The notes beneath the pieces are model-generated. The model was not told the origin of the DNA. It saw only the letters and a program-made list of their open reading frames with translations, and did not search any database. 64,000 nt of DNA from Candidatus Anstonellales archaeon (GTDB lineage: Archaea; Micrarchaeota; Micrarchaeia; Anstonellales; J096), in the NCBI GenBank assembly GCA_038896535.1, contig JAWACY010000002.1:91002-155001 (forward strand), in the 5' to 3' direction. The position numbers and the translations under genes were made by a program. Of this stretch, positions 17,881 to 61,092 are shown piece after piece; the first letter of the stretch is position 1, and the number at the start of each line of letters is the position of its first letter.

Positions 17881-20800
17881 TTATTTCTCTTCTTCAAGTT
17901 TTTTCTCTAATGCTTTCAAATCCTCAATGAGTTTATCAAATGTTTTTTGTTCGGATTGCTCTCGGAAAATACTAGGGGCACTAACCCTCAAAAAATTAAA
18001 GTACTCTTCATACCTGCCGCTGAAATCTCTAAAACACAGACCAGGCATATTATAAAGATCGTTTATATCATCCCTCATTTGGTTTTTGAATTCTTGTGAT
18101 GTTGTTTTTTTAGTGGCCATTTCTTGTGCTGTCTTTAGAAATTGCGCCTCATAACTATCTGGCACTAGTAAAAAATATGATTCAACACCATCTTGACCTA
18201 TTTTTCCTCCTACTGCTTTTATATAACCTAACGGATTATTTACGATAGATGTATAAAGATTTATTACCTTCTTGATTGAACTAAACTCCGTTTGTTCTTT
18301 TTCTGCTTCCTTTTGTTCTTGTGTTGGTTCTAGTTTTTTGTATAAATCGTTAAATAATCTTGTAATTTCCCCTTCGTTGCCAAGCAATTTTTTCAACGCT
18401 TCATATTCACTTTCTCCCAATATCTCTTTAGCGAGTTTTCCGTCTTCTACTTCTAGTAAAGGAGTATAATAATATATAATGGGCTCTAAATTCCTCAAAA
18501 CTGTTAAAACATCTTCAAAATAGCTTAAATAAGCATTTCTTATTTCACTCCTTATTTTAGATATTTCAAGCAACACATGATATTTAGCCCTTTCTGACAA
18601 ATTAAATTTTTTCAGCTTCTCAATTAGTCTTCTCTCTTCTTCCTTTAACTCATTTATTCTGTCTTTGGTTTTTTCCAATGCCTCGTTATTCAATTTTTCT
18701 AATTCATTTATGTAGTTATTTATTGTTCCGCTGTCATATTTTGATAAAAAATCATGTAATGAAACCTGCTCTCCGTTAAAATAAAACCTATAATGAAAAG
18801 GCGTAAATGGTTCTTTAATACCAAGCAAGCTTAAAAAAGGCGACAAAAGTGGCACTCTTGCTTTTTTCTCATCCTCATACTGTTGTTTTACTATTTCTCT
18901 AAATCTATTATCGATCTTACTAATCACATTGTCTTTATCTAAACCAAATTTCGTTGCAAATGACTCCGCAATTCCAGTCTTTATCTCCATAAATGGCGCT
19001 GCACTACCATAATTAACCTTAAAAAACATGAAATCTATTAAAGCTCTATAATCAAGCTTAATATAATCAGCGGCTTCCTCAATAGAAACACCGTATGTTT
19101 TTGCAAGCGCTAAAATCCTTCTTACGGAATAAGAAAGAGCACTTATTACATCCCCTGTATAATTCCATTTCCTTTCATATATAAGAGCCCCTACATCTTT
19201 CTTAAATTTTTCTATGTTGCTTATTCCACTCAATTTTTCTACTGCTTTAACCAATACCTCAACAACATCGCTTTCCTTCATATCGCCAGAAAGATAAAAA
19301 ACAGGTGAGCTGGGGTTTCGAATATCTATTTTTGTACTGAGATATGTTATTATTGCAGCCATTTCTCTTATTTGTTCCGGCTTTAGAGTATTCAGGTTAA
19401 CAAGTTTATTTAATCTTACGTATCTCTCCCTCATTTTTTCTGCTATTTTTTCTCTTAACGTTTTTCTTGCTTCGTCTCCATTATAAAAACTATAACTTAT
19501 CCATTGCTTCTTTTCCTCTTCCAACTCTTTTATCTCTTTTTCTCTTTGCCCCCTTATTATATCCCATGCTTTCTTGAATGCTTCCCCTCCTTGTTCAACA
19601 AGAGTAAATATAAATTTCGGTGGAAAGCCAAAAGTTGATATATCCTCCAATTTCGATATTGATGCAAATTGCAATGTTTCATAAAATGCTTCTAATGATG
19701 CATACACATAACTATTCTTGCCAAGAGGGTTTTTTCCATTTTCCAGTGCTTGCAGGATTCTTTCCATTAAACCCTTTGCTCTTATAATATCACCAAAAAT
19801 AAGAAGTTTATAAACAATTTCCATATGTTTTGACAGATCTTCTGTTTTTTCTATTTTTATCTCAGTCTTCAACAAATTATCTGCCAACACTGCAGTTCTC
19901 TTATAAAAATCAAAAGCCGAACTTAATACGTTCTTAGCTGCTTCCAATGGGGATATGCCAAGTTTTTTTATGTATTCTAATGCTGCTTCACCTGTATAAA
20001 CTATAATCTCTCCTGATTTGCCTGTTTCTACATAAATCATACCTCTTGCCCTTATATCTCTTTGATATTCACCACTAAATGCATTATTTACATACATAGC
20101 CAAAATATAAAATGCTGCCATTTGTGTATTTGTAAAAACAAATTTCCCAGATCTTATATTTAATGCGCCAGCCGGTGTTTCAAGGCTTAATTTACCGCCA
20201 GCCAGCCACCTAAAATCGAGTAAATCCGGGGCTAATGTAATGCCTGCATATGGCCCAAACTTATGAGACACTCCTGCTAAAAATTCTTCAACCTCGGCCT
20301 GAACATAAGGGTTCCATTGTGGCACTTCTGCCCCAATTGCAACGCCAGAACTAGAAGTTGGAACTTGCATTCTTCTGCCTTCAGGATGTGGTATTTCTTG
20401 TATTGTTCTTTCTTCTACCCTAACTCCAAATCCAGCTGTTGGTTGGAGCTTTTCTGTTGGGGTAATTATCACACCGAAACGAGGGCCTGCCTCTAACCTT
20501 TGTTCATAATAATTAGTTATTGCTGTTGTACCTCTGTTTATAAATACTTCCTCTAAAGCGTTTTTAATATCTTCCAAATTCGCATGTCTATTTTTTGAAC
20601 TCTTGTAAAGAGATTCAACTAGGCCCTCTAAATCTCCTTTTGTAAGATAAACAGTACCCCCCAACAGTTCTTTTATCTTCTGTAGTTCTCCTTCTGATAG
20701 TAAAATACCGCCAGACCCAGCCAAAGCTTGTGGGCCAGCTAATAAATCAATAGGTAGAACAAATACTCGACTCTCTTGATCATATATAACTACTTCCTTG

Positions 20801-20985
20801 CCATTATAGGTTATCTTACCATCCCTCCCTATTTTATAACCAGCATTTTTCATCTTATTTAAAAGCCAATCATAAACCTTTCTCCATGGTTCTCTCTTGT
20901 ATTCTTGCTTTTTTCTTTGCTCCTCTGCCTTCTCTGCTGTTTCCCTTGTTCGTTGTTCCAGTTTACTTCCTTTTTCTTGCCCCAA
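17881..20985 (-). CDS. giant hypothetical protein (1034 aa), fourth gene of the giant-protein operon
   Basis: Uninterrupted 3.1-kb ORF. N-terminal third is Gly-rich and beta-like (GPYAGITLAPDLLDFRWLAGGKLSLETPAGALNIRSGKF). The remainder is K/E-rich alpha-helical. No catalytic motif found. Confidence 0.7.
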   Translation of the reverse strand: MGQEKGSKLEQRTRETAEKAEEQRKKQEYKREPWRKVYDWLLNKMKNAGYKIGRDGKITYNGKEVVIYDQESRVFVLPIDLLAGPQALAGSGGILLSEGELQKIKELLGGTVYLTKGDLEGLVESLYKSSKNRHANLEDIKNALEEVFINRGTTAITNYYEQRLEAGPRFGVIITPTEKLQPTAGFGVRVEERTIQEIPHPEGRRMQVPTSSSGVAIGAEVPQWNPYVQAEVEEFLAGVSHKFGPYAGITLAPDLLDFRWLAGGKLSLETPAGALNIRSGKFVFTNTQMAAFYILAMYVNNAFSGEYQRDIRARGMIYVETGKSGEIIVYTGEAALEYIKKLGISPLEAAKNVLSSAFDFYKRTAVLADNLLKTEIKIEKTEDLSKHMEIVYKLLIFGDIIRAKGLMERILQALENGKNPLGKNSYVYASLEAFYETLQFASISKLEDISTFGFPPKFIFTLVEQGGEAFKKAWDIIRGQREKEIKELEEEKKQWISYSFYNGDEARKTLREKIAEKMRERYVRLNKLVNLNTLKPEQIREMAAIITYLSTKIDIRNPSSPVFYLSGDMKESDVVEVLVKAVEKLSGISNIEKFKKDVGALIYERKWNYTGDVISALSYSVRRILALAKTYGVSIEEAADYIKLDYRALIDFMFFKVNYGSAAPFMEIKTGIAESFATKFGLDKDNVISKIDNRFREIVKQQYEDEKKARVPLLSPFLSLLGIKEPFTPFHYRFYFNGEQVSLHDFLSKYDSGTINNYINELEKLNNEALEKTKDRINELKEEERRLIEKLKKFNLSERAKYHVLLEISKIRSEIRNAYLSYFEDVLTVLRNLEPIIYYYTPLLEVEDGKLAKEILGESEYEALKKLLGNEGEITRLFNDLYKKLEPTQEQKEAEKEQTEFSSIKKVINLYTSIVNNPLGYIKAVGGKIGQDGVESYFLLVPDSYEAQFLKTAQEMATKKTTSQEFKNQMRDDINDLYNMPGLCFRDFSGRYEEYFNFLRVSAPSIFREQSEQKTFDKLIEDLKALEKKLEEEK

Positions 20986-21038
20986 TATCCCACCATTTAT
21001 TTATTAAAATATTCATTTCCTCGGCATGTGCACAATCA

Positions 21039-24000
21039 TTACCTAGTAGCCTTCAGTTTTGAGATCCTAAAAATGGCATCAAAATATGCTTTCACTACCT
21101 CTCCTGTTCTTTGAATGTTCAGTGCTATGTCGCCCCCATATTGACTTATTTCTGCGGGCCATGTCTCTGATATTGCCATACTACCATACACAACAATTCC
21201 TTGGAGCAGTTCATTACTTAGATCTTTACCAATAACTGTGGCTCTATACACACCACTACCAAGACGCCATGTCTCATCACTTATATTATTAAAAACAATC
21301 TCACCATTCTTGATGCTATAATTTATCTCTCTTACTTCATTGTTGAAAGTAAAATCCCCCCTTACACCAGTGCCACCTGGAGTCATGCCTGGCCCACCTA
21401 TATCATGAGTATAAACACCAGTTGCAAGCCAACTTTTATATTTACTGATCTGCCCAATAATAATATCTTCCCTTTCTTTATTTTTTATCTTTACTCCCTC
21501 GCTCGTTTTAACTCTCTCGCCAAAAGCAAGTTGAACATTTGTAACTCTTCTAAGACCAGTTAGATATGTGTTAACTAAATTAAATGTGCCTGTCATTCTT
21601 CTGGCTATTAACTCATCTGCCTTTTCTCCTCCTGCTCCTACATATTGTGTCCCCCCTGTTCCGAAAAATAGCCACTTATTATCTTCTCCTGCAAGAAAGC
21701 CAAGCCACCCACTTGTAGCATCTTTTTGCCCCTTAGCTATATCTATATTTGTTCCTATTAATAACTTACCACTAACAAACTTCGCCTCTAATCTCCCCTC
21801 TAATGCTCCGCCTGTTATTGTTATCCTCTCCTTGCCATTAATTGTTTTGCCGTTTAAATTTTTTAAAACCGCTTCTCCTGTCTTTAAAGGCCCTAAATTT
21901 CTTGTCCACCCACCTAAAACAATAAGCCTCCCTTCTTGGTTTGGGGCAAGAGCAACAATTGCTGATATCTTATTCTTATCATCAAATTCAACATGCACAA
22001 AAGCATGCCTAACCTCCAAATCCTCTATTTTCTCTCTTCCAATACCAGCAATAGCATTAATGGTTTCTGTATCTAAACCTGCGTATGAAAGAAATTGCAA
22101 AACAGTCTTAGGATCTCCTTCTTTTTCTCCATTAACTATCAAAAGGTAATCCCTTAAAAAATACGTAAGAGCTGCTTGTAAACGCCTCCTCCCCTCATTA
22201 AAGTTGTTTATAATACCAAATTGAAAATCAGTACCAAAACTTTGAAGAGTTTCTATTTGTTTTTTTAATAGTGGATCACCTAGATCCTCATTTATTGTTC
22301 TCACAGAATACCCTAATGCTGCTAAAGCAATTGGTGCATTCCTGTATGGATTTGTATATTGAAATTGTGCTCCATATTCTAACTGTACTTTTTTAGGTGT
22401 CCAATGCTTAGTGACTTTATCAACAAAACCTTTTGCTTCCCAATTTGTTGTTCCTGGGGGCGCACTTATCCCACTAATATATACGCCCCGTCTTCCCATT
22501 ACGTCATAAATTTTACCTACGAAGATACTATAATTCCTTTGATCAAGATAGGATAAACCACCTAAGCCACCACCACCAATTGGTAAGTTCTGCCCAATTA
22601 AAAAACCGCCCCATTGATTAACCTGAAGTGCTGGGGCTGCTACAAAACCATCAATACTTGGTTTATTATGCAAGGCTATAACAAGACCATCTAGACTAGC
22701 CAGAGTTGTTCCCTTTGTTTCTCTTCCTCCTTGCACACCAGTTTCAATCACCAATCCCTGCGCCTTTGCCAAATTCCCCTCCTTTGCCTTTTCCCTTACC
22801 CCTAAGTTATTAAGATAATTTATATACTCCTTTGCTTGTTCTTGTGGTACATAAAAGTATCCTGCTTCTGCATAAGTTCCATTTGGTTGTCTATAAAAAA
22901 TTCTTGCTTTATACTCTCCTTTCTCTATTTCCCCTCCTTTTGTTTTTTCGAAAACAAGGCCAGTTTCAACACCAGTCGGTAATAATAAATTCAACTTGTC
23001 CAAAGTTGTTAATTCTTTTGGCCCTTTATAAGATGCGTTGGCTTCAACAGTCCACAAAGTATTCCCGTCGTTGAGATTCACTCTTTTAAATCTTCCCTCT
23101 GCTATTGTTACTGCCCCCGAATCACTTGAGCCCCCGCCACCACTCAACTCAGCTTCTGTTCTGGTTATGCCTGGAAAGGCCCGTTGAATGTAGCTAAGTC
23201 TTCCGCTGAAATATCTACTCCATTGTCCCTCGCCATTTCTTTCCGCTCTGTAAGTACCGCCAAACGTTCCTTCAATAACTTTAAATGTCAGAGGTCCTTC
23301 AATTGGCAAATACTTGCTCAATATCTTGTTTAATTTACTATAATCAAATGTAAAATAAGGCAAGATTAATTGCAATGCTGGTGTGGTTAAATTAAATTCC
23401 AACATTTCTCCGTTTTCTATTGTTTTTCTGAGTTCTTCAAATGTTTTTGGTAGTGCAGTTGGTATTTCGCCAGGAAGAAGATAACCATGAAGAGAATTAT
23501 ACACGGTTCTTGGAAGGTTGATATTGATCTTTAAATCTGGTATATTTACAGTAAAACCTTGTTGTTCTGTTTGTGTTATTTTTATTTTAAAAGTTTCTAA
23601 GCCAGTAGTCTGGTCTCTTTCAACTTTAAGATTTTCCATTTTTATATCTTGAATGGTTGGAAATATTTTATTTAATTCAGTTCCGACTTCACGCAGAAAA
23701 TTTATTGCGCCTGCTGTATAATTACTTTCATATAATGCCTGCGCACTACCTAAAATCAAAGACAACCCATGGCTAAGTATCTCAGTGTTGCCTTGTTTGC
23801 TTACAAAGGGCGTTAGATAAACTGCAGCAGCAAAATGCAGCTCAGGGCGTATCATAGAAAGATTCTCAATAAAAATCCTTAATTTTTCTCCTTCTACTGT
23901 CTTAAGAAATTCTCTAATTTTACTCATCGTTATACGTTCAGGGTCTCCGCCAAGCAAGGAAGCGGCATGCTTGGCTATATAAATTTGTGCGTAGTAATTA

Positions 24001-24833
24001 AGTAGCGCGAACTGTTTCTGTGTTGTCGTATTAGATCCTAAGGCCTCAAAGAATTTATTTCTAATTTCTAAATCTTTTGCCAAATTTTCATCACCATAGG
24101 GCAATATGAATTTTCTCAGTTCTGCCATTTGTTTCTCATTTTCAATTTCAATTTTGCCGTCATAATAAGCAAAAATGTCAGCTATAGCAGTTTGTCTTCT
24201 TCCATAAAATGTTGATAGAATTCTATGGAACAGCGTTCTTGTATCAAGATTGAGATTACTCAAAAGATCTTCGAAATCCTTGAGATCTCCATCTTTCCTT
24301 TTAATCTTTTCTTCTAGAACTTTCTCTAATTTTTCTCCTAATAGCCTTTTGTATTTAGTTTCAAGTTTTTTTAGGTTACCCCAAACTTCTTCTAATCTCT
24401 TTATAAAATCATCAATCTTTCCTCTTACAGTTTTTGCGTCTGCATCGGGGGGAATATTTAGAAAACAATCCGCATAAGCATCCTCTATTATTTTAGCCTG
24501 GGAGGTTAATTCATTTAATAATTTCTTATATTCTTGTATGAGCTCCCTTTCCTTCTCTGAAAAAAAGTCTAGATTAAGTTTACTTAAATATTGAACAAAC
24601 TCATTTAATGTTCTGTAGTTCAAGGCGTATTGGGTATATTTAGGCACTTCTTCCTCTATTTTCTGTGGAGCCTTCATATTAAATAGAAGCGTTAAACCCA
24701 TTACTACGCTCTCTCTTTGCTTCTGCGCCTCATTTGCTGTTTCTATTGCTCTTCTTTTTCCTTCTGTTAGTTCTTCTGTTAGTTGTGGTGTTTCTTTTTT
24801 TCCGACCGGACTTTTTTCTTGTGTGGCTGGCAT
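21039..24833 (-). CDS. giant hypothetical protein (1264 aa), third gene of the operon
   Basis: Uninterrupted 3.8-kb ORF. N-terminal 600 aa are helical and K/E-rich, C-terminal 650 aa are Gly-rich (GGGGLGG, GGPGMTPGGTGVRGDF). No Walker motif or protease motif seen. Confidence 0.7.
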   Translation of the reverse strand: MPATQEKSPVGKKETPQLTEELTEGKRRAIETANEAQKQRESVVMGLTLLFNMKAPQKIEEEVPKYTQYALNYRTLNEFVQYLSKLNLDFFSEKERELIQEYKKLLNELTSQAKIIEDAYADCFLNIPPDADAKTVRGKIDDFIKRLEEVWGNLKKLETKYKRLLGEKLEKVLEEKIKRKDGDLKDFEDLLSNLNLDTRTLFHRILSTFYGRRQTAIADIFAYYDGKIEIENEKQMAELRKFILPYGDENLAKDLEIRNKFFEALGSNTTTQKQFALLNYYAQIYIAKHAASLLGGDPERITMSKIREFLKTVEGEKLRIFIENLSMIRPELHFAAAVYLTPFVSKQGNTEILSHGLSLILGSAQALYESNYTAGAINFLREVGTELNKIFPTIQDIKMENLKVERDQTTGLETFKIKITQTEQQGFTVNIPDLKININLPRTVYNSLHGYLLPGEIPTALPKTFEELRKTIENGEMLEFNLTTPALQLILPYFTFDYSKLNKILSKYLPIEGPLTFKVIEGTFGGTYRAERNGEGQWSRYFSGRLSYIQRAFPGITRTEAELSGGGGSSDSGAVTIAEGRFKRVNLNDGNTLWTVEANASYKGPKELTTLDKLNLLLPTGVETGLVFEKTKGGEIEKGEYKARIFYRQPNGTYAEAGYFYVPQEQAKEYINYLNNLGVREKAKEGNLAKAQGLVIETGVQGGRETKGTTLASLDGLVIALHNKPSIDGFVAAPALQVNQWGGFLIGQNLPIGGGGLGGLSYLDQRNYSIFVGKIYDVMGRRGVYISGISAPPGTTNWEAKGFVDKVTKHWTPKKVQLEYGAQFQYTNPYRNAPIALAALGYSVRTINEDLGDPLLKKQIETLQSFGTDFQFGIINNFNEGRRRLQAALTYFLRDYLLIVNGEKEGDPKTVLQFLSYAGLDTETINAIAGIGREKIEDLEVRHAFVHVEFDDKNKISAIVALAPNQEGRLIVLGGWTRNLGPLKTGEAVLKNLNGKTINGKERITITGGALEGRLEAKFVSGKLLIGTNIDIAKGQKDATSGWLGFLAGEDNKWLFFGTGGTQYVGAGGEKADELIARRMTGTFNLVNTYLTGLRRVTNVQLAFGERVKTSEGVKIKNKEREDIIIGQISKYKSWLATGVYTHDIGGPGMTPGGTGVRGDFTFNNEVREINYSIKNGEIVFNNISDETWRLGSGVYRATVIGKDLSNELLQGIVVYGSMAISETWPAEISQYGGDIALNIQRTGEVVKAYFDAIFRISKLKATR

Positions 24834-24863
24834 AGAAAAATTTGAATAAATGAGTTTAAAAAT

Positions 24864-26711
24864 CTATATGAAATACTTGCAAGGAGAATTTAAAAGCGTT
24901 AGATTAATATCGCACTTATAGTCTAATTCTTTCGTTGCTCCGCCTATATTTCTTTGCACATTTTCTATTGTTAAATTAATTGTATAACTCTTTTTTTCGT
25001 CTTCACGCATATTATTAAAACCGTCCCTTGATGCTGTGGCATTAAATAGCATATAAGCTTGTTTTGGTTGAGATGTAGTCGTGTCGTTAACAATACTTAT
25101 TAATGCTGATAATTCAGCCAATAAATCACTGCCATCTTTAACCCCATACTTAGGAGCATTATCACAGCTCAAATATCTGTTTTGAGATATGTCAAAACCG
25201 CAAAATATATAACTGTATTTAAGAGTGCCGGGCAGCAATATAACTTTAACCGGCTGAGGAGAGCAAGCCAAAGATCCCATGCAATAAAACACCCTACTCT
25301 TATTGTTATCATCCTCATTGCTTTCAGCTATACTATTTTCAGGATCAGCACTCGTATTTACCTCTATTATTTTAAATTCATCTTCGCATATTAAATTGAA
25401 TTTTACTATATTATTATCTGGTGATAGCTCATATTTATCCTCTATTATTGTGCTTTGTGTTTGTGTTGTTTCTTTAATTTTCAATGATAAATTTGCTTTT
25501 CCTTGTGGCGGGAAATTTTCAAAAATAATCGATGCATTACACTCATAACTTCTGCCTTGGCCTATTTCATTGCCATTAAATGGGCATGATATGTCTGATT
25601 TTAAGTTTGGTGTCAATATATTTACTGTTATTTGTGTAGTTATTGTATAACCACTACACCCAGATTCTAATGATTGAATTGTAACATTAAATGTCAGGCT
25701 TGCTGGCATTGGTTGATTGCCATTATAATTTAAATCCCCTGTTACATCAGCACTACTGCCACTAGCTATTTCCACCTGATTATCAAGAGAAAAAGCGAAA
25801 TTATTATCATTAGGCACTACAGATATAACTTTTATCTTCTCTTCTCCATTATTTGTGACTTTTATTGTAACTTTTGTAGGGTTTCCAGTATATACAATTC
25901 CATTACTTGATAACTGAACATTTATTAATTTACAATATGGCACATTAACCGGCAAGCTTATTGAGTAAGCATCTGTAGGTTGCCTGAAATATCTTATTCC
26001 TTCCCTAAAAGAAAAATAAGTATCATTCATATCAACAAGTAAGACACAAAAATAATTGGCATTTGCATTTATTGAATTTGGATTATTACTTATTGTGAAA
26101 GTTTTGGCAAAACTATTGCCTGATTCGCCACTTATAGATTGATAATAATTGTTAACAGATATATCCCCATGACAATACATTACTGCTGAACCATTTGAGA
26201 CTTTCCAGTTATTATCATTATTATAATATTTAACATTTACTTGCCTCCCGTTTGAAATTGAGAAAGCACATGAACCAGTTTTATTAAAATAATAATAACC
26301 AACGCCATTACCAAAATCTGTTTTACAATTGTTTGATGCGTCGAATGGAAGCGAGCCTTGTTGGATAAAATTTACTGTTAAATTTTGCAATCCGGGCCCA
26401 GTTCCGCCAGTCGAGCCAAATGAAGAGCTTGTTGATGATATTACATCACCAGTAGGCCAAAACTTTAAAGTTAGGTTTGCTAAAACGTTAAATGGTTTAT
26501 TTGGTATTACTTTTTGAACTCTTACACCATTTTGATAAAAATCAACTGAAAAGTTAAATAACCATGAAATTGGAGCAATTAAATCAAAATTAGTTTGTTG
26601 CCCTGAACGAGGAGCATTTCCTGCCTTATATAAGTCACTTCCAGATTGTGATGTTTGTGCACTAAAAACAATTGTTAAAATTAAAAATAAAAAAAATATT
26701 TTTTTTATCAT
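24864..26711 (-). CDS. secreted Cys-rich, N-glycosylation-sequon-rich protein (615 aa) with signal peptide, second gene of the operon
   Basis: MIKKIFFLFLILTIVFSAQTSQ is a typical signal peptide. More than 25 N-x-S/T sequons and about 20 Cys. KVTIKVTNNGEEKIKVISVVPNDNNFAFSL resembles CARDB-like beta-sandwich adhesion domains. Confidence 0.7.
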   Translation of the reverse strand: MIKKIFFLFLILTIVFSAQTSQSGSDLYKAGNAPRSGQQTNFDLIAPISWLFNFSVDFYQNGVRVQKVIPNKPFNVLANLTLKFWPTGDVISSTSSSFGSTGGTGPGLQNLTVNFIQQGSLPFDASNNCKTDFGNGVGYYYFNKTGSCAFSISNGRQVNVKYYNNDNNWKVSNGSAVMYCHGDISVNNYYQSISGESGNSFAKTFTISNNPNSINANANYFCVLLVDMNDTYFSFREGIRYFRQPTDAYSISLPVNVPYCKLINVQLSSNGIVYTGNPTKVTIKVTNNGEEKIKVISVVPNDNNFAFSLDNQVEIASGSSADVTGDLNYNGNQPMPASLTFNVTIQSLESGCSGYTITTQITVNILTPNLKSDISCPFNGNEIGQGRSYECNASIIFENFPPQGKANLSLKIKETTQTQSTIIEDKYELSPDNNIVKFNLICEDEFKIIEVNTSADPENSIAESNEDDNNKSRVFYCMGSLACSPQPVKVILLPGTLKYSYIFCGFDISQNRYLSCDNAPKYGVKDGSDLLAELSALISIVNDTTTSQPKQAYMLFNATASRDGFNNMREDEKKSYTINLTIENVQRNIGGATKELDYKCDINLTLLNSPCKYFI

Positions 26712-26723
26712 TTTTTCACTTTA

Positions 26724-29700
26724 TTATGTAGATTCAGCATTCTTAAATAATTCTTCTGCCATTTCTTCTGGATCTCTTGTTATTGTTCTCCCCCATGCAT
26801 CTACATCTTCTGTTCTTAAACCTATCTGTTCTAAAAGCCAATTAACTGCCCTCTCTGCTCCAGACACAATAACTGTAAGTATTGGGACAAAGTAAGGGCC
26901 TACTTGAATAACAGAAATGCTAGGGTTAACAGACCAGTTCTCTCGCTCATAACTAACTGTATAAGTATTTATTAATCCCACTGATGGAATTGGGCTCCTT
27001 GCCCAAGATAAACCAAATTTTCCACCGCCAATTGCATAACTAGCTCCTGCTCCCCACATTAAACCGGCGCTGCTAAAACCAACAAATGGAGAAACAGTTA
27101 AATCTCCTAATCTAACATATGGGGACAGAGCAGCCATTCCATAAATAGCGAGGGCATTAGTTGCACTAGCACTAAGAAGCCAGGCAAGTCCAACATTCTC
27201 ATTCCCAAATATTGGGAATGCAGTACTTATTCCAACTCCGGGATTTACAAATTTTCCATTAACAAACATAATTTGTGGCTGAATAGTAAATGGCCCCTCA
27301 CGAAACTCTAAGCCAACAATTGCTGTCCTTCTCAATCTATCAGCAAATAATTTTTGCTTTTCTTTTAATGTTAATTCTCTTGGCCTCTGCTCTCTTACCT
27401 CTTTTATTATTGGTTTAATCTTCTCTTGGTCTTTTTTATCAAATTCAAGCCCGCCTAATTTCTGGCCATTACTGTCTTTTACTTCAATAAATATTTTATC
27501 ATTTGTTTCTGTTACTGTATAATTATAATTCCTAAGATTGTGAGCCACATTTTTAAGTCCTTCTTTTGTATTTTCTCCTATATTAGGTATCTGATCGATC
27601 TGATCATCGGTTGGCACATTAACGACCCAATTACCATTTTGCTTCGTGAGAGTTAAATTTTGCTGTAATTTCTTTATTGCTTCTTCAGCAAGGTTGCCGC
27701 CTACATCAGAAGGTAATATTGAACGAAATTCCGTCAAAGATATTTCATAACCAACAACTTCTGTTCTTATTATTGATTCCGTTGCTGTTGTTGGTAGGCT
27801 AACTACTGGCACAACTGGAAGGAGTGTTAAGTCTGGCTTTCTTGGCTGAATAAAAATTGGTGTTCCTACATTATCTATCATACCATAAAATTCTACTTTT
27901 GGCAGTTGCGGAGCTCTACTAACACTTTCTGAAGGAACAGGCATAGTTATAGAAAATTCTCCTCCCCACCTTGAAACGCTGCCATAACCAAGCTCAACAT
28001 CGCCATTCAATACAAAATAGTTGCGCCATATAAGTGCATCTTTTTTGTTATCCTCTTCTTTTTCATTCTTTTGTGATAGCATTAAAATTGCCATACTGGC
28101 ACTTGATGCCATTATTATATTTTCTCTATCATTTTCTGGTGTCAGGACAAGCCTATCATTTTTCGTTACTAATATATCATCTTTTGCGGCTGCGTTAACT
28201 GTTACATTCCCTCTATTATCAACATTAACTCTATAAACTGTTATTCTTTCACCATTTGGCTTTAAGATATCTATGTTATAAGTTCCGGGCTTTAAATTTT
28301 TTGCTTTAATTGTCTCTTGAATATTTTCAATCTTTTGTTGACTGCCAAACACATTTCTGTTTATATTGATGCCTTCTGTTGCTTTTTGCCATCCAGCTAT
28401 CCAATTTTGAGCATTAAATGCATTTCCAACCAGATCTTCAAATGGATATTCAACTGCCTGTATTGCAAACAAAACTGCTGCAGCATCTTCAACCGATATT
28501 TTATTACTAAGGCCAAGTTCTTGTATCAATTTTCTTGCACTATCTCTTAAGTTATTCTTTTCTGTATCAGACATGGAATCAAAAATCCTTTGTGTATTAT
28601 TCAGAAAGTAATCAAAAACCGCGTTATATCTCCTCCTATATACTTCATTAGCTTCTTCGCTTACATAACCAAAATACCTTCTTATAACAAATTCTTTTAG
28701 GCCATTCAAATCATTTACTCTGCTGCCTTTAGCATATTTAACAATCCAAGCAACAGATGGATAATAGCCAAGAAATTCTTGGCTGTATTCATAACTTGCT
28801 GTTATACTATAACCTTTACCTTTCTTCTTTTCTCCTGCTGGTTTATAATATACTCTTGTCTCTGTTGCCCCTTGTGGTGGTTGTGGCTGCAGTGGTGATT
28901 CAGGTGGTTTTTGTTCAACTTCAACATACTTAACCGGTAGCTTTGGTTGTATGCTTTCTACAAGTTTTAGAATACGCAAACCCTGCTTTTGCTCTTCTGA
29001 TCCTTTAGCAAAATATTCGTTTTTATTAAGCTCTTCATTAAAAGCAGAAATCTCATTATCGGTTTTTAAATGCTCCTTTATAATATTAAGCACATCGACC
29101 TTTTCATTATCAGGCAACTGCTTATTCATAATTTGTATTAATGCTATTCTCCTGATTAAAGGCTCTAAAAACAAGGGCATAAAATCTTCTTCTATCCCTA
29201 CTCTTTTTGCCAGTGAAACAAGCTCACTCCTTATATCATTATCCTCTTTCTTTAACTGTTCTATCTGTGCAATAACATCTTTTAGATTAACATTATTCTT
29301 CAACATAAATACAACATCATTTATATCATAACCATAATCCCATAATAAACTTTTTACATCTTCCTCATTATTTTCATTGATAGTAATATTTTTTTGTTTT
29401 AATTTTTCTTTTATTTGCTGCCACACAACATCTGACCATTTTTCTTTTATTTTGTCTTCCAGATATTCGTTAAAATCTCTATACTTCATGCTTCTTAAGT
29501 TAATACTTTTTTCATACCAGTCTTCATCCAAAAGTTCAGCAACAAATGATAAATATTCATCCGCTGTCATTGAATTCATTATTTGAGTCAAAAAATTTTG
29601 CCTTCTCATAGAAACAATTGAAAATGCTTCTCTATCCCCTGCACTTCTATATGATAATCTTTCTTGAATAAGAATTAAAGCAAATTGGTTTGCAACTGTC

Positions 29701-30680
29701 ATTGTAGAAGCTTTTGCATTCATATCAGCAAATGTTTTTGCCAGCTTTCTGTATTGCTTTTCAAACTCTTCTTTTTCTTGATCTCCTGAATTTTTACTTA
29801 TACTGTCTTTATAGAATTTTTGTAGTTTATCATAAAATTCTGAGACAATAAGATAAATAGATGCCAGCTTTCCTGCTTCTGCATCAAAAAGATGAAGATA
29901 CTTACTTGGCAATTTTCCTCCTTCTACCAATCTTTCTACTACTCCCCTTAAGTCATTCATGCCTTTACTCAACTCATCGTAAAAATCATTCATCGATTTT
30001 GTTAGGTCTACTTTTTGTTCTCTTTCTCCTATTTGTTCATTAGAAATTAAAATGGAATAACCCTTAGCTAGAGTCAAATTCAAATATGCAACAGAATCAT
30101 AAAGCTCTTTGCCGGTTTTGAGCTTTTTTTCATCAAATAATGCTTTCATAATAAGTCCTATTGTTGCTTCCATATATACATTTTTTTCTTTTGCTGGCAA
30201 TTCTAAACTTTGGCCAATTGAATCAAAACCATCATAAGCAATGCCAATAACTTGCAATAGACTAAGCCTTATTCTTCCAGCTTCTGTTCCAACATCTTTT
30301 AACTCTGCAAGAGATTTTATCACATCTGCAATCTCTTCATCCCCTAATCCTTTCCTTTTTGCAGCTAATTCAACAAGCATTGCTGCTTCTATTGTTGACG
30401 CATATCTTGCCTTTTCTTTAGGGTCTTTTTCATTCAATATACTCTCTATAAGTCCCCTATCAGTCCTTACAAGATAGGCAATTCTACCAAAAAAAGTTCT
30501 AGGCCATATTTTTGCATAACCTTGCTTTACTAATCTATCTATTAACTCACCTTCATTTTTTATTTGAAATTTGTTTACATATGCACTTAATACTTCTTCG
30601 CTTACCCCATATTTTTGTGCTAATTGCTTAACATCAATTTGTTTTTCAGTTGCTGTTTGATCAGGCATTTTTACACCCAT
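26724..30680 (-). CDS. giant hypothetical protein (1318 aa) with C-terminal Gly-zipper-like hydrophobic membrane region, first gene of the operon
   Basis: Uninterrupted 3.96-kb ORF. First 900 aa are K/E-rich and helical. Last 200 aa contain hydrophobic Gly/Ala/Ser-rich stretches (VGLAWLLSASATNALAIYGMAALSPYV, VSPFVGFSSAGLMWGAGASYAIGGG, VGPYFVPILTVIVSGA). Confidence 0.7.
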   Translation of the reverse strand: MGVKMPDQTATEKQIDVKQLAQKYGVSEEVLSAYVNKFQIKNEGELIDRLVKQGYAKIWPRTFFGRIAYLVRTDRGLIESILNEKDPKEKARYASTIEAAMLVELAAKRKGLGDEEIADVIKSLAELKDVGTEAGRIRLSLLQVIGIAYDGFDSIGQSLELPAKEKNVYMEATIGLIMKALFDEKKLKTGKELYDSVAYLNLTLAKGYSILISNEQIGEREQKVDLTKSMNDFYDELSKGMNDLRGVVERLVEGGKLPSKYLHLFDAEAGKLASIYLIVSEFYDKLQKFYKDSISKNSGDQEKEEFEKQYRKLAKTFADMNAKASTMTVANQFALILIQERLSYRSAGDREAFSIVSMRRQNFLTQIMNSMTADEYLSFVAELLDEDWYEKSINLRSMKYRDFNEYLEDKIKEKWSDVVWQQIKEKLKQKNITINENNEEDVKSLLWDYGYDINDVVFMLKNNVNLKDVIAQIEQLKKEDNDIRSELVSLAKRVGIEEDFMPLFLEPLIRRIALIQIMNKQLPDNEKVDVLNIIKEHLKTDNEISAFNEELNKNEYFAKGSEEQKQGLRILKLVESIQPKLPVKYVEVEQKPPESPLQPQPPQGATETRVYYKPAGEKKKGKGYSITASYEYSQEFLGYYPSVAWIVKYAKGSRVNDLNGLKEFVIRRYFGYVSEEANEVYRRRYNAVFDYFLNNTQRIFDSMSDTEKNNLRDSARKLIQELGLSNKISVEDAAAVLFAIQAVEYPFEDLVGNAFNAQNWIAGWQKATEGININRNVFGSQQKIENIQETIKAKNLKPGTYNIDILKPNGERITVYRVNVDNRGNVTVNAAAKDDILVTKNDRLVLTPENDRENIIMASSASMAILMLSQKNEKEEDNKKDALIWRNYFVLNGDVELGYGSVSRWGGEFSITMPVPSESVSRAPQLPKVEFYGMIDNVGTPIFIQPRKPDLTLLPVVPVVSLPTTATESIIRTEVVGYEISLTEFRSILPSDVGGNLAEEAIKKLQQNLTLTKQNGNWVVNVPTDDQIDQIPNIGENTKEGLKNVAHNLRNYNYTVTETNDKIFIEVKDSNGQKLGGLEFDKKDQEKIKPIIKEVREQRPRELTLKEKQKLFADRLRRTAIVGLEFREGPFTIQPQIMFVNGKFVNPGVGISTAFPIFGNENVGLAWLLSASATNALAIYGMAALSPYVRLGDLTVSPFVGFSSAGLMWGAGASYAIGGGKFGLSWARSPIPSVGLINTYTVSYERENWSVNPSISVIQVGPYFVPILTVIVSGAERAVNWLLEQIGLRTEDVDAWGRTITRDPEEMAEELFKNAEST

Positions 30681-30730
30681 TAAATTTTTATTTAGTTATA
30701 TTTAAAAATGTTGCTAAAATAAAAAAAGGT

Positions 30731-31309
30731 ATGAAAGCAATTTACATACATTTGTTTTGTATTGGCCTTATGTTATTAATTTTATTTGCTTCATTTATAA
30801 TAGCAAAACAGGAAATGCAAAGAAATACACTGCTTATAAGTGCTTTTGGATTCCTTGCCCTTTTATGGCTTATTTTTACAACATCATTGACAATTGCAAT
30901 TAAATTCCTGCCAAATAATGAGATATTGAAATTCTTAATAAAAGAAAGAAGGATTGTTGGGCTTTATGGCTTCTTTTTTGCTTTGATACATATCACTTTA
31001 GTACTAAACTTTTTTTTCAGATGGGACATTGAAAAGGCAATTTTTGGTAATACTTACAGATTTATTGGCGGGATCGCACTGCTTCTTTTATCATTATTAG
31101 CAATAACAAGCAATAATTTCTCTATGGCATTATTAAAGAAAAACTGGAAAACATTGCATTATTTAATATATATAATAATAATTCTAGCGCTAATTCATGC
31201 AGCAAACATAGGCTTAATTTTCATGAAAAATGATTACATAAAATATGGCATAATACTTTTATCAGCAGCAGTTTTATTATATAAATTTAAAAATCTTTTC
31301 TTAAAATAG
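30731..31309 (+). CDS. ferric-reductase-like / MsrQ-YedZ-like heme-binding membrane protein
   Basis: Six predicted TM helices with conserved His inside helices (LIHITLV, LHYLIY, LIHAANIG), typical of the ferric reductase transmembrane-component family. ATG at 30731 follows AAAGGT. Confidence 0.55.
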   Translation: MKAIYIHLFCIGLMLLILFASFIIAKQEMQRNTLLISAFGFLALLWLIFTTSLTIAIKFLPNNEILKFLIKERRIVGLYGFFFALIHITLVLNFFFRWDIEKAIFGNTYRFIGGIALLLLSLLAITSNNFSMALLKKNWKTLHYLIYIIIILALIHAANIGLIFMKNDYIKYGIILLSAAVLLYKFKNLFLK

Positions 31310-31312
31310 AGT

Positions 31313-31744
31313 ATGGAGTATAATAAATTTTATGCTTTATTCCTTATATTGATGCTAATTTTCTTATATGGCTGTTATCAAAGCACAAGCCCATCAAATA
31401 CTGAAATCAAAGAGGAGTTAGCAAATATTAATAAAAGTAATGAAAGCATTAATGTAATTAATATAACAAGCAGTGGTTTTATACCAGACACAATAAAAAT
31501 AAAGAAAGGCCAGGCAGTGAAATTCGTTAATGTCGATACAAACAAACATTGGCCAGCATCAGATGTCCATCCAACACATAATGTATATCCTGAAAAAGGG
31601 GGTTGTATAGGGAGTAAATTCGATGCATGCAAGCCCTTGCAAAAAGATGAGTCATTTATATTTGTATTCAATGAAATAGGAACTTGGGATTATCATGACC
31701 ATCTAAACCCTGGATTAAAAGGTAAAATTATTGTTGAGGGCTGA
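31313..31744 (+). CDS. cupredoxin-fold lipoprotein-like protein with non-canonical metal-site residues
   Basis: Signal/lipobox-like N-terminus (LIFLYGCYQ). IKIKKGQAVKFVNVDTNKHWPASDVHPTHNV and FNEIGTWDYHDHLNPGLKGKIIVEG mirror the plastocyanin/halocyanin pattern (TWTN..PHNV ... GTYDYYCTPHxxMKGKIVV), but with His/Asp in place of the Cys ligand. Confidence 0.5.
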   Translation: MEYNKFYALFLILMLIFLYGCYQSTSPSNTEIKEELANINKSNESINVINITSSGFIPDTIKIKKGQAVKFVNVDTNKHWPASDVHPTHNVYPEKGGCIGSKFDACKPLQKDESFIFVFNEIGTWDYHDHLNPGLKGKIIVEG

Positions 31745-48947: not shown

Positions 48948-50330
48948 TTATCTTTTGCCTGCTCTTATTATTTTTTGCCCAGCCGCCTTTCTTAATAGCT
49001 CAGCTATTTCTTTATAGACATTTTCAGCAGCCAATGTTAAAGCTGTTCTGCCTTTATTATCTTTAACATTGATATCTGCTCCTTTTTCTATTAATAATTT
49101 AACTCCCTCTAATTTAACTTTTTCTTTTTTGTTATTGTAACCATCAATAAGAGTCATTAAAGCAGTTTCTCCTCTATTATTTATGATATTTGGATTAACG
49201 CCTGCTTTTAATAGTAATTCAGTTATTTCATTGGTTTCATGAATCCCATAAGTAGAATATATTAAAGCAGTATTGCCTTCTTTATCTTTAACATTGATAT
49301 CTGCTCCTTTTTCTATTAATAATTTAATTGCTTCTACATTACCGTAAGGAGTGTCAACAGCATAAATTAAAGCTGTTTTTTCTTCATCATCTCTTGCATT
49401 TACATCTACTCCTTTTTCTATTAATAATTTAATTATCTCTATATAGCCTCTGTAAGCAGCTAACATTAAAGCTGTTCTGCCTTTATTATCTTTAGCATTT
49501 ACATCTACTCCTAATTCTATTAATGATTTAACTGCTTTTTTATTGCCAATGTTAGCAGCATACATTAAAGCAATGGCCCCATATCTACTTTTAATGCTTT
49601 CTTTTGCTCCTGATTTTATTAATAATTCAAGTATTTCTACATCACCATTTGCTGCAAAATATACCAAAGCAGTATTGCCATATTTATCTTTAGCGTTTAC
49701 ATCTATGCCTGATTTTATTAATAATTCAACTGCTTCTTTATTTTCATATTCAGAAAAAGCAGCATGCATTAAAGCTGTTCTGCCATCTATATCTTGAGCA
49801 TTTACATATGCCCCTAATTTTATTAATAATTTAATTGCCTCTGCATTGCCTCTTGAAGCGCTATAAATTAAAGCTGTCCTGCCTTTATTATCTTGAGCAT
49901 TTACATATGCCCCTTTTAACAAAGCTTTGACAATCATGGCAATTTTTCTCTTTCGACAATTAACCATTAGTTTTCCGTTTTCTTTCTGGATCTGCACAAA
50001 TCTATAATATTTTTTTAATTTTGCATTTATTTCTTCATTTATCTCCTTAAAAGCAATTGCTAATATTCCACTTTCATCATTTATTACTCTTTCTGCTATT
50101 TCCTTATACCTCTTCTGTCTGGCTAAGCTAAGGATTTCCTTCTTTTTTTCTTCTATTGTATTTTTTATCGTATTTTTTTCCTCATCTACTAATGGCTGCT
50201 TATTATGAAATGCATTACCATATTTATTAGAATTAGATACATTATTTCCTTCTTGCTTTACATTGTTCCCTTCTTGCTTTACTACTTTAATCACATTTTT
50301 AATTTCTCCACTTCCCATCATCTTACCCAA
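48948..50330 (-). CDS. ankyrin-repeat protein (about 9 ANK repeats)
   Basis: Repeated 33-aa units GRTAL(M/I)xAAxxGxxExxKLLIExGADVNA. A K/N/E-rich N-terminal region precedes the repeats. Confidence 0.85.
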   Translation of the reverse strand: MGKMMGSGEIKNVIKVVKQEGNNVKQEGNNVSNSNKYGNAFHNKQPLVDEEKNTIKNTIEEKKKEILSLARQKRYKEIAERVINDESGILAIAFKEINEEINAKLKKYYRFVQIQKENGKLMVNCRKRKIAMIVKALLKGAYVNAQDNKGRTALIYSASRGNAEAIKLLIKLGAYVNAQDIDGRTALMHAAFSEYENKEAVELLIKSGIDVNAKDKYGNTALVYFAANGDVEILELLIKSGAKESIKSRYGAIALMYAANIGNKKAVKSLIELGVDVNAKDNKGRTALMLAAYRGYIEIIKLLIEKGVDVNARDDEEKTALIYAVDTPYGNVEAIKLLIEKGADINVKDKEGNTALIYSTYGIHETNEITELLLKAGVNPNIINNRGETALMTLIDGYNNKKEKVKLEGVKLLIEKGADINVKDNKGRTALTLAAENVYKEIAELLRKAAGQKIIRAGKR

Positions 50331-60243: not shown

Positions 60244-61092
60244 TCATTCTTCCTTTTCTTCCTTTTTGCTAATTTTCGGCATAAAATAAAATAAGTTTTC
60301 TGGCTTTCTGGAACGGAAGAATAAAGTGCTTCTCAGCATCCAGCCTATGAATCCTGACGGGTGCCTTTTGTCCTCAATATTAAAATGCTTAAACATATTT
60401 TTAAACATGTTGAGGTTTTTTTGATTGCTCTCATTTACCATATTCACAATGTTTTCTGTTACTATTATATTCCCTTTTTCTGCAAGCCTTTGTATCTTCA
60501 TGCTAACATTTATAGGCTTGCCTATTATATCATAATGTATTTTACTATAAGGTGAACCTATTTTAACAGCTATTGCATAACCAGAATCACAAGCTATGCC
60601 ATAATCAACTTTTTGCATGCCTAAATCATGCATTACATCGCTTATTTCATGCATTGCTCTTGATATTGCATAAGAGCATAGAAGTGTTCTCTTTATACTA
60701 TCCTCTATTTTTTGGCAAGGAAAAAATGATATTACGCCATCTCCAAGAAATTTTAATACATGCCCCCCAGCTATCTCTGTTAAACTGCCGGTTATATTAG
60801 AAAAAATTGATATTATGGCCGCAATGTCTTTAGCATTTTTCTCGTAACTTAGCTGTGTGAATCCTCTCAAATCTGTGGCAAGGAATGCGCAATAAAAAGG
60901 CCTTGATTTATGCGCATTCCAATAATCATGTAAAAAATTTTGTGCAGGGTCATTTGGCGGGCTGTTTATTTCTTTTTTTATCTTTGCTATCTTTGCTATC
61001 TGAATACCAACTTTTTCAGCTTTTTCTAATGTATCTACCTCTGTTTCTCTCTCTTTAAAAAACGGCTGGGCTTTTATATCCTCATTGGCCAT
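60244..61092 (-). CDS. class III adenylyl/guanylyl cyclase catalytic-domain protein
   Basis: FLATDLRGFT (metal-binding Asp), KFLGDGV (second Asp) and YDIIGKPINVSMKIQ (substrate/transition-state region) reproduce the class III cyclase motif order. K/E-rich C-terminal tail. Confidence 0.7.
   Translation of the reverse strand: MANEDIKAQPFFKERETEVDTLEKAEKVGIQIAKIAKIKKEINSPPNDPAQNFLHDYWNAHKSRPFYCAFLATDLRGFTQLSYEKNAKDIAAIISIFSNITGSLTEIAGGHVLKFLGDGVISFFPCQKIEDSIKRTLLCSYAISRAMHEISDVMHDLGMQKVDYGIACDSGYAIAVKIGSPYSKIHYDIIGKPINVSMKIQRLAEKGNIIVTENIVNMVNESNQKNLNMFKNMFKHFNIEDKRHPSGFIGWMLRSTLFFRSRKPENLFYFMPKISKKEEKEE

What the first reader, a model, noticed from the sequence alone, without database searches (positions are those of the whole stretch)
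26724..27340. C-terminal Gly-zipper-like hydrophobic module on the 1318-aa protein
The last ~200 aa (FVNPGVGISTAFPIFGNENVGLAWLLSASATNALAIYGMAALSPYVRLGDLTVSPFVGFSSAGLMWGAGASYAIGGGKFGLSW...VGPYFVPILTVIVSGA) contain three hydrophobic stretches rich in small residues with GxxxG/AxxxG spacing. This pattern is characteristic of membrane-inserting or channel-forming helices. It contrasts sharply with the charged helical bulk of the protein and could anchor the complex or form a pore.
Basis: seen in the sequence. Interest (0 to 1): 0.6.

Follow-up and report, generated by a model that had tools for sequence, protein, structure and literature searches.

The report
Porin-like beta module on archaeal giant protein
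The uncharged, glycine-rich tail of this 1318-residue protein from a tiny symbiotic-type archaeon is not a bundle of membrane helices but a run of about eleven beta hairpin strands, modelled with moderate confidence as a porin-like barrel, a fold not established in archaea, and its function is still unproven.

Summary
The sequence is as quoted. Window 26724-27340 (-) encodes residues 1115-1318 of a 1318-aa ORF from a Candidatus Anstonellales (Micrarchaeia, DPANN) genome. The compositional break is real: 7.6% charged and 19.7% Gly+Pro residues, against about 27-35% charged elsewhere.

The Gly-zipper helix reading fails:
- GxxxG and small-xxx-small spacings are no commoner than in shuffles.
- Only one stretch passes a helix hydropathy threshold, and a conserved GPYFxP motif interrupts it.
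- In the only clear homologue of the module (36% identity) no stretch passes, and the first stretch carries indels, His, Pro and Asn.

AlphaFold2 on a two-sequence alignment (pLDDT 69, pTM 0.61) gives two helices, eleven strands of 10-15 residues with conserved Gly/Asn/Pro turns, then three helices. Foldseek hits are almost all transmembrane beta-barrels (porins, VDAC/Tom40, KdgM, designed barrels).

Against a classical outer-membrane protein: there is no signal peptide, no C-terminal beta-signal and no Pfam hit, and cultured Micrarchaeota have an S-layer, not an outer membrane.

The family is tiny, with three sequences found. A downstream secreted Ig-like protein is syntenic in all three.

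Best reading: a conserved beta-barrel-like hydrophobic anchor or pore module of an unknown four-gene envelope-associated system. Membrane insertion is inferred, not shown.

The parts
26724..30680 (-). 1318-aa ORF (NCBI: hypothetical protein QXP22_03005, Candidatus Anstonellales archaeon; annotated from Met5 as 1314 aa). No N-terminal signal peptide or TM helix.
27333..27437 (-). Two conserved charged helices just before the beta module (residues about 1082-1116; RELT..E.QK..A..LR conserved in P0002)
26862..27326 (-). The beta-hairpin module, residues 1119-1273. Eleven predicted strands of 10-15 residues, joined mostly by 2-4-residue turns (GP, NG, FG, GD, GG, GP) plus one 11-residue low-confidence loop (1171-1181). 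7.6% charged residues. The better AF2 model gives a porin-like barrel.
26727..26855 (-). Conserved charged helical tail after the module, residues 1276-1318 (AER...E..GLRT.D..AW....R.PE). Three predicted helices at lower confidence.
27438..27695 (-). Small alpha/beta domain, residues about 996-1081, also present in the P0002 fragment (low-confidence model)
27762..28817 (-). Middle region, residues 622-973, homologous to the 1356-aa protein P0003 (25% identity, E 2e-24 pairwise). It includes a SpaA/CnaB-like beta-sandwich segment at residues 784-858 (window 28107-28331).
24864..26711 (-). 615-aa protein with an N-terminal signal peptide and Ig/CARDB-like repeats. It starts 12 nt after the 1318-aa ORF. 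A related signal-peptide protein follows the homologue in both other loci.
21039..24833 (-). 1264-aa orphan protein, third gene of the apparent operon: helical N-terminal part and a beta/Gly-rich C-terminal part with its own low-charge stretch at residues 698-798
17881..20985 (-). 1034-aa orphan protein, fourth gene of the apparent operon
30697..30706 (-). TATA-like TTTAAATATA about 20 nt upstream of the ATG at 30680, a candidate archaeal promoter for the operon (read from the sequence only)

Best explanation
Residues about 1119-1273 form an all-beta hairpin meander of eleven, possibly twelve, strands of membrane-spanning length. The strands are joined by conserved Gly/Asn/Pro turns. The module most probably closes into a small porin-like barrel with almost no charged residues. 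It sits between conserved charged helices on both sides. I take it to be the hydrophobic anchoring or pore-forming end of a large, otherwise soluble, helical and Ig-containing protein. On this reading the barrel is buried in a lipid bilayer, or failing that in an equally apolar protein interface. It would tether or connect a four-gene envelope-associated assembly (1318 aa, secreted 615 aa, 1264 aa, 1034 aa) of a DPANN archaeon.

Shown: the compositional break; the absence of helix signatures; the beta secondary structure in two model runs; conservation of the module and its turn residues in a second organism; synteny with a secreted protein in three loci.

Inferred: closure into a barrel (one moderate-confidence model); burial in a membrane; any pore or anchoring function; co-function of the four genes.
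For: - Composition: 7.6% charged and 19.7% G+P in 1119-1275, against about 27-35% charged elsewhere.
- AF2 on the two-sequence alignment A1: mean pLDDT 69, pTM 0.61. It gives strands 41-50, 53-62, 65-79, 82-92, 104-113, 116-125, 129-139, 142-153, 157-168, 173-182 and 185-195 of the construct, with helices on both sides.
- The same strand positions recur in an independent run on a longer construct.
- Foldseek against PDB: the significant and near-significant hits are almost all transmembrane beta-barrels. These include Tom40 at E 3e-4, Rhodopseudomonas blastica porin, VDAC, the 12-stranded KdgM (TM 0.54 per target, rmsd 4.5 A over 147 columns) and a designed TM barrel (TM 0.56).
- Turn residues (G1129, N1141-G1142, G1181, G1219, G1261-P1262) and strand motifs (PQ.MF, PYV.L, G.GASY, VGPYF.P) are invariant between this protein and P0002 at 36% overall identity, E 2e-38.
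- Most strands have one hydrophobic face and one face of G/S/A/T/N/Q in both homologues.
- Synteny: a signal-peptide, Ig-like protein follows the gene here, in L001 and in L002.
- Gene gaps of 12, 30 and 53 nt suggest an operon.
- A SpaA/CnaB-like segment, usual in surface proteins, lies in the same polypeptide.
Against: - There is no signal peptide or any other TM segment in the 1318-aa protein, so no known route to the outside.
- Cultured Micrarchaeota have one membrane plus an S-layer, not an outer membrane (bioRxiv 10.1101/2021.04.28.441871; PMC11329633).
- The barrel rests on one model from a two-sequence alignment. The five models ranged from pLDDT 69 down to 44. The longer construct gave pLDDT 44.
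- Dyad hydrophobic periodicity is not significant here (z 0.6) or in P0002 (z 0.9). It is significant only in P0003 (z 3.9).
- Conserved prolines sit inside predicted strands, which to my knowledge is unusual for membrane barrels.
- The putative equivalent region of P0003 is 17% charged, and its homology is only tentative (z 2.0).
- Eleven is an odd strand count, so closing the barrel would need one parallel pair.
- No OMP, autotransporter or porin Pfam family is hit.
Confidence: 0.45

Rival explanations
1. A soluble beta-barrel or beta-sandwich that acts as an oligomerisation or docking domain. The uncharged surfaces are buried in protein-protein contacts, either homo-oligomeric or with the 1264-aa and 1034-aa partners. 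The complex is cytoplasmic and has no membrane role.
For: - None of the three giant proteins has a signal peptide or TM helix.
- The organism's relatives lack an outer membrane (10.1101/2021.04.28.441871).
- The P0003 counterpart carries 17% charged residues with strong dyad alternation, as expected for a solvent-exposed sheet face.
- Prolines lie within the predicted strands.
- The 11-residue loop 1171-1181 could serve as a cross-over between two sheets.
- Model confidence is only moderate.
Against: - Both strand faces are nearly free of charge in two homologues, in proteins that are otherwise about 27% charged.
- Foldseek does not return soluble sandwiches or barrels among the top hits. It returns membrane barrels.
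- Strands of 10-15 residues with 2-residue turns are long for a sandwich domain.
Confidence: 0.3
2. One reading: three alpha-helical, Gly-zipper-type transmembrane or channel-forming helices.
For: - There is one G-x3-G-x3-S-x3-G run at 1206-1218.
- One segment, 1253-1273, has KD19 = 1.84.
- The region has overall low charge.
Against: - The motif counts equal shuffle expectation.
- The outer zipper glycines are not conserved.
- In P0002 no segment exceeds KD19 1.18, and stretch 1 has indels, His, Pro and Asn.
- The one hydrophobic segment contains the invariant GPYFxP.
- 19.7% G+P, and the longest apolar run free of Pro/Gly is 16 residues.
- Helical periodicity z = -1.4.
- AF2 gives strands in both runs.
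- No Gly-zipper Pfam hit at E <= 10.
Confidence: 0.04
3. The module has no stable barrel or sandwich fold of its own. It would be a hydrophobic, hairpin-prone segment that only orders on assembly, for example as an amyloid-like or cross-beta interaction element or as strands donated to a shared inter-subunit sheet. The AF2 barrel would then be an artefact of a shallow alignment.
For: - The alignment has only 2-3 sequences.
- Model pLDDT ranged from 44 to 69, and fell to 44 on the longer construct.
- There is no significant dyad periodicity.
- There is no significant internal repeat.
Against: - Motifs and turn positions are collinear and conserved over about 155 residues at 36% identity. This argues for a defined fold.
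- The strand boundaries are the same in two runs.
- pTM 0.61 for the shorter construct.
Confidence: 0.15

Closest known systems
Small bacterial outer-membrane beta-barrels of 10-12 strands (KdgM-family porins, PDB 4fqe/4pr7; designed TMB10 barrels, 8uzl)
   Same: They are the best structural matches to the AF2 model (TM 0.52-0.56 per target, rmsd about 4.5 A). Both are all-next-neighbour antiparallel meanders with strands of about 10-15 residues, tight turns, and a small, Gly-rich composition.
   Different: - There is no sequence similarity (10-16% identity; no Pfam hit).
- There is no signal peptide.
- The barrel is not at the extreme C-terminus and lacks a terminal aromatic beta-signal.
- It is fused to about 1100 residues of helical and Ig-like protein.
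- The host is an archaeon with no known outer membrane or BAM machinery.
- Prolines lie inside the strands.
Type Va autotransporter translocator domain (passenger, then linker helix, then 12-stranded C-terminal barrel)
   Same: The overall layout matches: a large N-terminal 'passenger', then a helix directly before an 11-12-strand barrel near the C-terminus.
   Different: - No Sec signal peptide.
- No PF03797 match.
- A conserved 43-residue helical tail follows the barrel.
- The predicted strand count is odd.
- The passenger is mostly alpha-helical and charged, not a beta-helix.
VDAC/Tom40 and general porins (16-19 strands)
   Same: They give the lowest Foldseek E-values (3e-4 to 1e-3). VDAC/Tom40 also combine an odd strand number with an adjacent helix.
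   Different: They are much larger barrels, with low TM-scores (0.2-0.3) and rmsd of 8-14 A. The resemblance is at the level of a membrane-type beta meander only.
Glycine-zipper membrane motifs (GxxxGxxxG; Pfam Gly-zipper_Omp / _OmpA / _YMGG)
   Same: Both are rich in Gly/Ala/Ser and low in charge. One i, i+4 run of small residues is present (1206-1218).
   Different: The motif is not enriched and not conserved, the secondary structure is beta rather than helix, and there is no HMM match.

Membership tests
Glycine-zipper helices (GxxxGxxxG membrane motif; Pfam Gly-zipper families) | Repeated G/A/S at i, i+4, i+8, above composition expectation and conserved in homologues | tested here: not met
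   Counts equal the shuffle means. G1206 and G1218 of the single run are replaced in P0002.
Glycine-zipper helices (GxxxGxxxG membrane motif; Pfam Gly-zipper families) | The motif lies in an alpha-helical hydrophobic segment long enough to span a membrane | tested here: not met
   Only 1253-1273 passes KD 1.6, and GPYFxP interrupts it. The P0002 maximum is 1.18. AF2 assigns strands. Helical moment z = -1.4.
Glycine-zipper helices (GxxxGxxxG membrane motif; Pfam Gly-zipper families) | Match to a family HMM | tested here: not met
   No Gly-zipper family at E <= 10 on the module alone, or at E <= 0.1 on the whole protein.
Bacterial-type outer-membrane beta-barrel proteins (OMPs, porins) | Closed antiparallel meander barrel with a lipid-facing hydrophobic exterior | tested here: inconclusive
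   The AF2 model (pLDDT 69, pTM 0.61) matches TM barrels in Foldseek. The second model had pLDDT 44. No coordinates were available, so the exterior could not be inspected. Dyad periodicity is not significant.
Bacterial-type outer-membrane beta-barrel proteins (OMPs, porins) | N-terminal Sec signal peptide | tested here: not met
   The N-terminus MGVKMPDQTATEKQIDVKQLAQKYG is polar. The ORF cannot be extended upstream. There is no hydrophobic segment before residue 950.
Bacterial-type outer-membrane beta-barrel proteins (OMPs, porins) | C-terminal beta-signal: the last strand ends the protein with an aromatic residue | tested here: not met
   The last predicted strand ends at residue 1273. A further 45 residues follow, mostly helical and charged.
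Bacterial-type outer-membrane beta-barrel proteins (OMPs, porins) | The organism has an outer membrane and BamA/Omp85 assembly machinery | not testable with these tools
   Only 64 kb of the genome was available. The literature reports a single membrane plus S-layer for cultured Micrarchaeota (10.1101/2021.04.28.441871; PMC11329633), revising the earlier two-membrane view (PMC4243693).
Type Va autotransporters | Signal peptide, passenger, linker helix and a 12-stranded C-terminal barrel matching the Autotransporter HMM | tested here: not met
   No signal peptide. No Pfam autotransporter hit. Eleven strands are predicted, followed by a tail. Only the helix-then-barrel order is similar.
PGF-CTERM / archaeosortase sorting signals | PGF-like motif, TM helix and short basic tail at the extreme C-terminus, together with an N-terminal signal peptide | tested here: not met
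   GPYF at 1261-1264 is followed by only about 11 apolar residues and then 43 further residues. There is no signal peptide and no NCBIfam hit at E <= 0.1.

The most novel reading that the evidence does not exclude
The module is a genuine lipid-embedded beta-barrel made by an archaeon. That would be the first of its kind outside bacteria, organelles and secreted toxins. It would sit at the end of a giant DPANN protein exported by a non-Sec route. It would insert without BAM into the cell's own membrane or a host cell's membrane. There it would anchor or open a conduit for a previously unrecognised four-protein contact apparatus.
Probability: 0.15. Interest if true: 0.85.

Novelty: new variant of a known kind. 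Interest (0 to 1): 0.5.

Why it matters
To my knowledge, transmembrane beta-barrels are regarded as a hallmark of bacterial outer membranes, their organelle descendants and secreted pore-forming toxins. None is established in archaea. A conserved porin-like module on a giant protein of a DPANN archaeon would therefore question that boundary if it really sits in a membrane. These organisms live by physical contact with hosts, and the molecular parts of that contact are largely unknown. The operon would become a concrete candidate for envelope or host-contact machinery. If instead the module is a soluble assembly domain, the finding shrinks to an orphan domain of an orphan operon. In either case the family is extremely rare. 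An exhaustive HMMER scan of 1.84 billion cluster representatives (from about 15 billion proteins) found three members. The claim is cheap to test with a 240-residue recombinant fragment.

Tried and rejected
- **Family libraries.** Pfam, NCBIfam, PHROGs and PADLOC on the four large proteins and two neighbours gave nothing above threshold. Pfam on the isolated module, on P0002 and on the P0003 C-terminus at E <= 10 gave nothing relevant. Pfam on three sub-segments gave only sub-threshold noise.
- **PDB sequence searches.** Searches with the C-terminal half, the A1 profile, the 1264-aa protein and the 615-aa protein found no relatives.
- **Word-indexed homology searches.** All three were used. 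They returned only the protein itself, or P0002.
- **Locus scans.** Two scans each of genome contigs, metagenome contigs and viral contigs returned nothing. tblastn against phage and plasmid collections found no match. A virus or plasmid origin therefore has no support.
- **Longer AF2 construct.** Residues 880-1318 with a three-sequence alignment gave pLDDT 44, so its 3D arrangement and its Foldseek hits were discarded.
- **Repeats and shared modules.** Internal hairpin repeats, and similarity to the beta-rich parts of the 1264-aa and 1034-aa neighbours, were not significant (z <= 1.7).
- **Hydrophobic-moment test.** It did not give significant beta periodicity for this protein, so the two-faced strand description is descriptive only.
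- **PGF-CTERM sorting signal.** Considered because of the GPYF plus apolar stretch, and rejected (see membership test).
Full report
**Where this is**

The window is a 32% GC archaeal chromosome segment. One tRNA is 152 nt long and was found by Rfam but not by ARAGORN, which suggests it contains an intron. Housekeeping genes lie all around: SerRS, ArgRS, GlmS, RIO kinase, UbiA, PcrB/GGGP synthase and ribosomal proteins L2/L3/L4.

The 1318-aa ORF at 26724..30680 (-) is identical to NCBI 'hypothetical protein QXP22_03005 [Candidatus Anstonellales archaeon]'. Anstonellales is an order of Micrarchaeia, in DPANN.

The ORF is the first of four co-directional genes: 1318 aa, 615 aa, 1264 aa and 1034 aa. 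The gaps between them are 12, 30 and 53 nt. A TATA-like TTTAAATATA sits about 20 nt upstream of the first ATG. None of the four matches any Pfam, NCBIfam, PHROG or PADLOC family above threshold.

**Checking the observation**

Positions 26724-27340 encode residues 1115-1318, and the quoted peptide is present.

The compositional break is genuine. Residues 1119-1275 are 7.6% D/E/K/R and 19.7% Gly+Pro, whereas the other segments are 19-35% charged. This is the only long low-charge segment in the protein.

GxxxG, [GA]xxx[GA] and [GAS]xxx[GAS] occur exactly as often as in composition-preserving shuffles: 2 against 2.3, 7 against 7.6, and 16 against 15.9.

Only one of the three 'hydrophobic stretches' reaches a helix-type hydropathy threshold. 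That is 1253-1273, with a KD19 of 1.84. The other two peak at 1.27 and 1.11.

**Homologues**

The word-indexed search of 5.8 billion proteins found only the protein itself. An exhaustive HMMER scan of 1.84 billion cluster representatives, using residues 621-1318 as query, found two real relatives.

- **P0002** is 361 aa and matches residues 1079-1313 at 36% identity (E 2e-38). It lies on a 1.5-kb contig of 32.7% GC. Its reading frame is open to the contig edge, so it is the C-terminal fragment of a larger orthologue.
- **P0003** is 1356 aa, on a 5.7-kb contig of 48% GC. It matches residues 622-973 at 25% identity, and weakly matches the N-terminus. MAFFT aligns its C-terminal region collinearly with the module. 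That similarity is only tentative (z 2.0).

In both foreign loci the next gene encodes a signal-peptide protein with Ig-like repeats, like the 615-aa ORF here. The L001 product matches p615 at E 2e-7, and the L002 product at E 1e-3. The pair 'giant protein plus secreted Ig-like protein' is therefore conserved.

Further scans of genome, metagenome, viral, phage and plasmid collections found nothing.

**Helices or strands?**

The comparison with P0002 argues against transmembrane helices.
- In P0002 no 19-residue window exceeds KD 1.18.
- Stretch 1 (VGLAWLLSASATNALAIYGM) aligns to LG---IISNLGTN-ISPHGLGLV, with indels, His, Pro and Asn.
- The one strongly hydrophobic stretch contains the invariant motif VGPYF.P.

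What is conserved instead are short motifs and turn residues: REG.F, PQ.MF.NG.F.NP, IST, EN.G, TN, PYV.L, G.GASY, VGPYF.P and AER...GLRT.D..AW.

Hydrophobic-moment analysis shows no helical periodicity (z -1.4). It also shows no significant dyad periodicity for this protein (z 0.6) or for P0002 (z 0.9). Only P0003 shows it (z 3.9).

**Structure prediction**

AlphaFold2 on the two-sequence alignment of residues 1079-1318 gave mean pLDDT 69 and pTM 0.61. The model has two helices, then eleven strands of 10-15 residues, then three helices. The strands are joined mostly by 2-4-residue turns, with one 11-residue low-confidence loop.

In full-length numbering the strands are 1119-1128, 1131-1140, 1143-1157, 1160-1170, 1182-1191, 1194-1203, 1207-1217, 1220-1231, 1235-1246, 1251-1260 and 1263-1273. 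The two-residue turns are GP, NG, FG, GD, GG and GP. Most strands show one hydrophobic face and one face of G/S/A/T/N/Q in both homologues.

A second run on residues 880-1318 with three sequences reproduced the strand positions. Its mean pLDDT was only 44, so its 3D arrangement is not usable.

**Fold comparison**

Foldseek of the better model against the PDB returned almost exclusively transmembrane beta-barrels:
- Tom40, E 3e-4;
- Rhodopseudomonas blastica porin, E 6e-4;
- VDAC;
- OmpU, OmpF and OmpG;
- the PapC usher pore;
- the 12-stranded KdgM porin, with TM 0.54 per target and rmsd 4.5 A over 147 columns;
- a designed 10-strand TM barrel, with TM 0.56.

**What it most likely is**

With good confidence, about 0.8, the module is a conserved beta-hairpin meander and not a set of helices. 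With moderate confidence, about 0.5, it closes into a small porin-like barrel.

Both faces of the strands are nearly uncharged, in a protein and a proteome context that is otherwise about 27% charged. I therefore favour burial of the barrel in a lipid bilayer, or in an equally apolar interface. On this reading it is the anchoring or pore-forming end of an envelope-associated assembly encoded by the four-gene cluster.

Two weak indications point to the cell surface. The co-operonic partner is secreted. A SpaA/CnaB-like segment at residues 784-858 matches repeats of LPXTG surface proteins (E 5e-6 and 2e-5 against the whole library).

**What speaks against a classical membrane barrel**

- There is no signal peptide or other TM segment.
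- There is no C-terminal beta-signal, since 45 residues follow the last strand.
- No OMP or autotransporter HMM is hit.
- The predicted strand number is odd.
- Conserved prolines lie inside strands.
- The tentatively equivalent P0003 region is 17% charged.

On the organism's envelope, early cryo-ET was read as two membranes in ARMAN cells (reviewed in PMC4243693). Later work on cultured Micrarchaeota showed a single membrane with an S-layer (bioRxiv 10.1101/2021.04.28.441871; PMC11329633).

Membership in the OMP, autotransporter, Gly-zipper and PGF-CTERM families is therefore rejected or unproven. What remains is a resemblance of fold, not of family.

**Rivals**

- A soluble oligomerisation barrel or sandwich whose apolar surfaces are protein-protein interfaces (about 0.3).
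- A segment that orders only on assembly, with the AF2 barrel an artefact of the shallow alignment (about 0.15).

**Verdict**

The composition and the coordinates are right. The motif spacing is chance.

The helix and Gly-zipper mechanism is wrong, but a membrane or pore role remains open, and is if anything better motivated by a porin-like beta model.

This is an orphan module, with three known sequences, whose predicted fold class would be unexpected in an archaeon. The key step, lipid insertion, is untested. The structural evidence rests on one moderate-confidence model.

Noticed in passing
window 63171-63322 (-): A 152-nt tRNA was detected by Rfam (61.9 bits) but missed by ARAGORN. It presumably contains an intron, which fits an archaeal genome.
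   Followed up: no
window 48948-50330 (-): A 460-aa protein made largely of ankyrin repeats (Pfam Ank_2, E 4e-80). To my knowledge this is an unusual protein type for an archaeon and is often linked to host interaction in symbionts.
   Followed up: no
window 28107-28331 (-), residues 784-858 of the 1318-aa protein: This segment resembles the SpaA/CnaB-type beta-sandwich repeats of LPXTG-anchored bacterial surface proteins (P0004 and P0006; E 5e-6 and 2e-5 against 1.84 billion proteins). No Pfam model reaches threshold. The domain type is usual outside the cell, yet the protein has no signal peptide.
   Followed up: partly
window 21039-24833 (-), 1264-aa ORF: The second giant orphan protein has its own low-charge, Gly-rich, beta-looking stretch at residues 698-798. 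It also has a weak NCBIfam hit to alpha-xenorhabdolysin subunit A at residues 131-187 (E 0.0036, far below cutoff). It shows no significant similarity to the module studied (z 1.3).
   Followed up: partly
window 24864-26711 (-); L001 1138-1539; L002 4103-5725: A signal-peptide protein with Ig/CARDB-like repeats follows the giant gene in all three loci, from contigs of 32-48% GC. This conserved gene pair has no annotated function.
   Followed up: partly
window 30650-31744 (+): Divergently transcribed from the operon are a ferric-reductase-like transmembrane protein (Pfam E 7e-11) and a cupredoxin-like protein. The real start of the first is probably the ATG near 30732, not the TTG at 30650.
   Followed up: no
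window 17881-30680: The four-gene block has slightly higher GC (34.6%, locally up to 38.6%) than the window average (32.2%). This may reflect the Gly-rich coding or foreign origin. The cause was not resolved.
   Followed up: no
window 60244-61092 (-): A 282-aa protein has an adenylate/guanylate cyclase catalytic domain (Pfam E 2e-8). It lies next to the ribosomal protein cluster.
   Followed up: no
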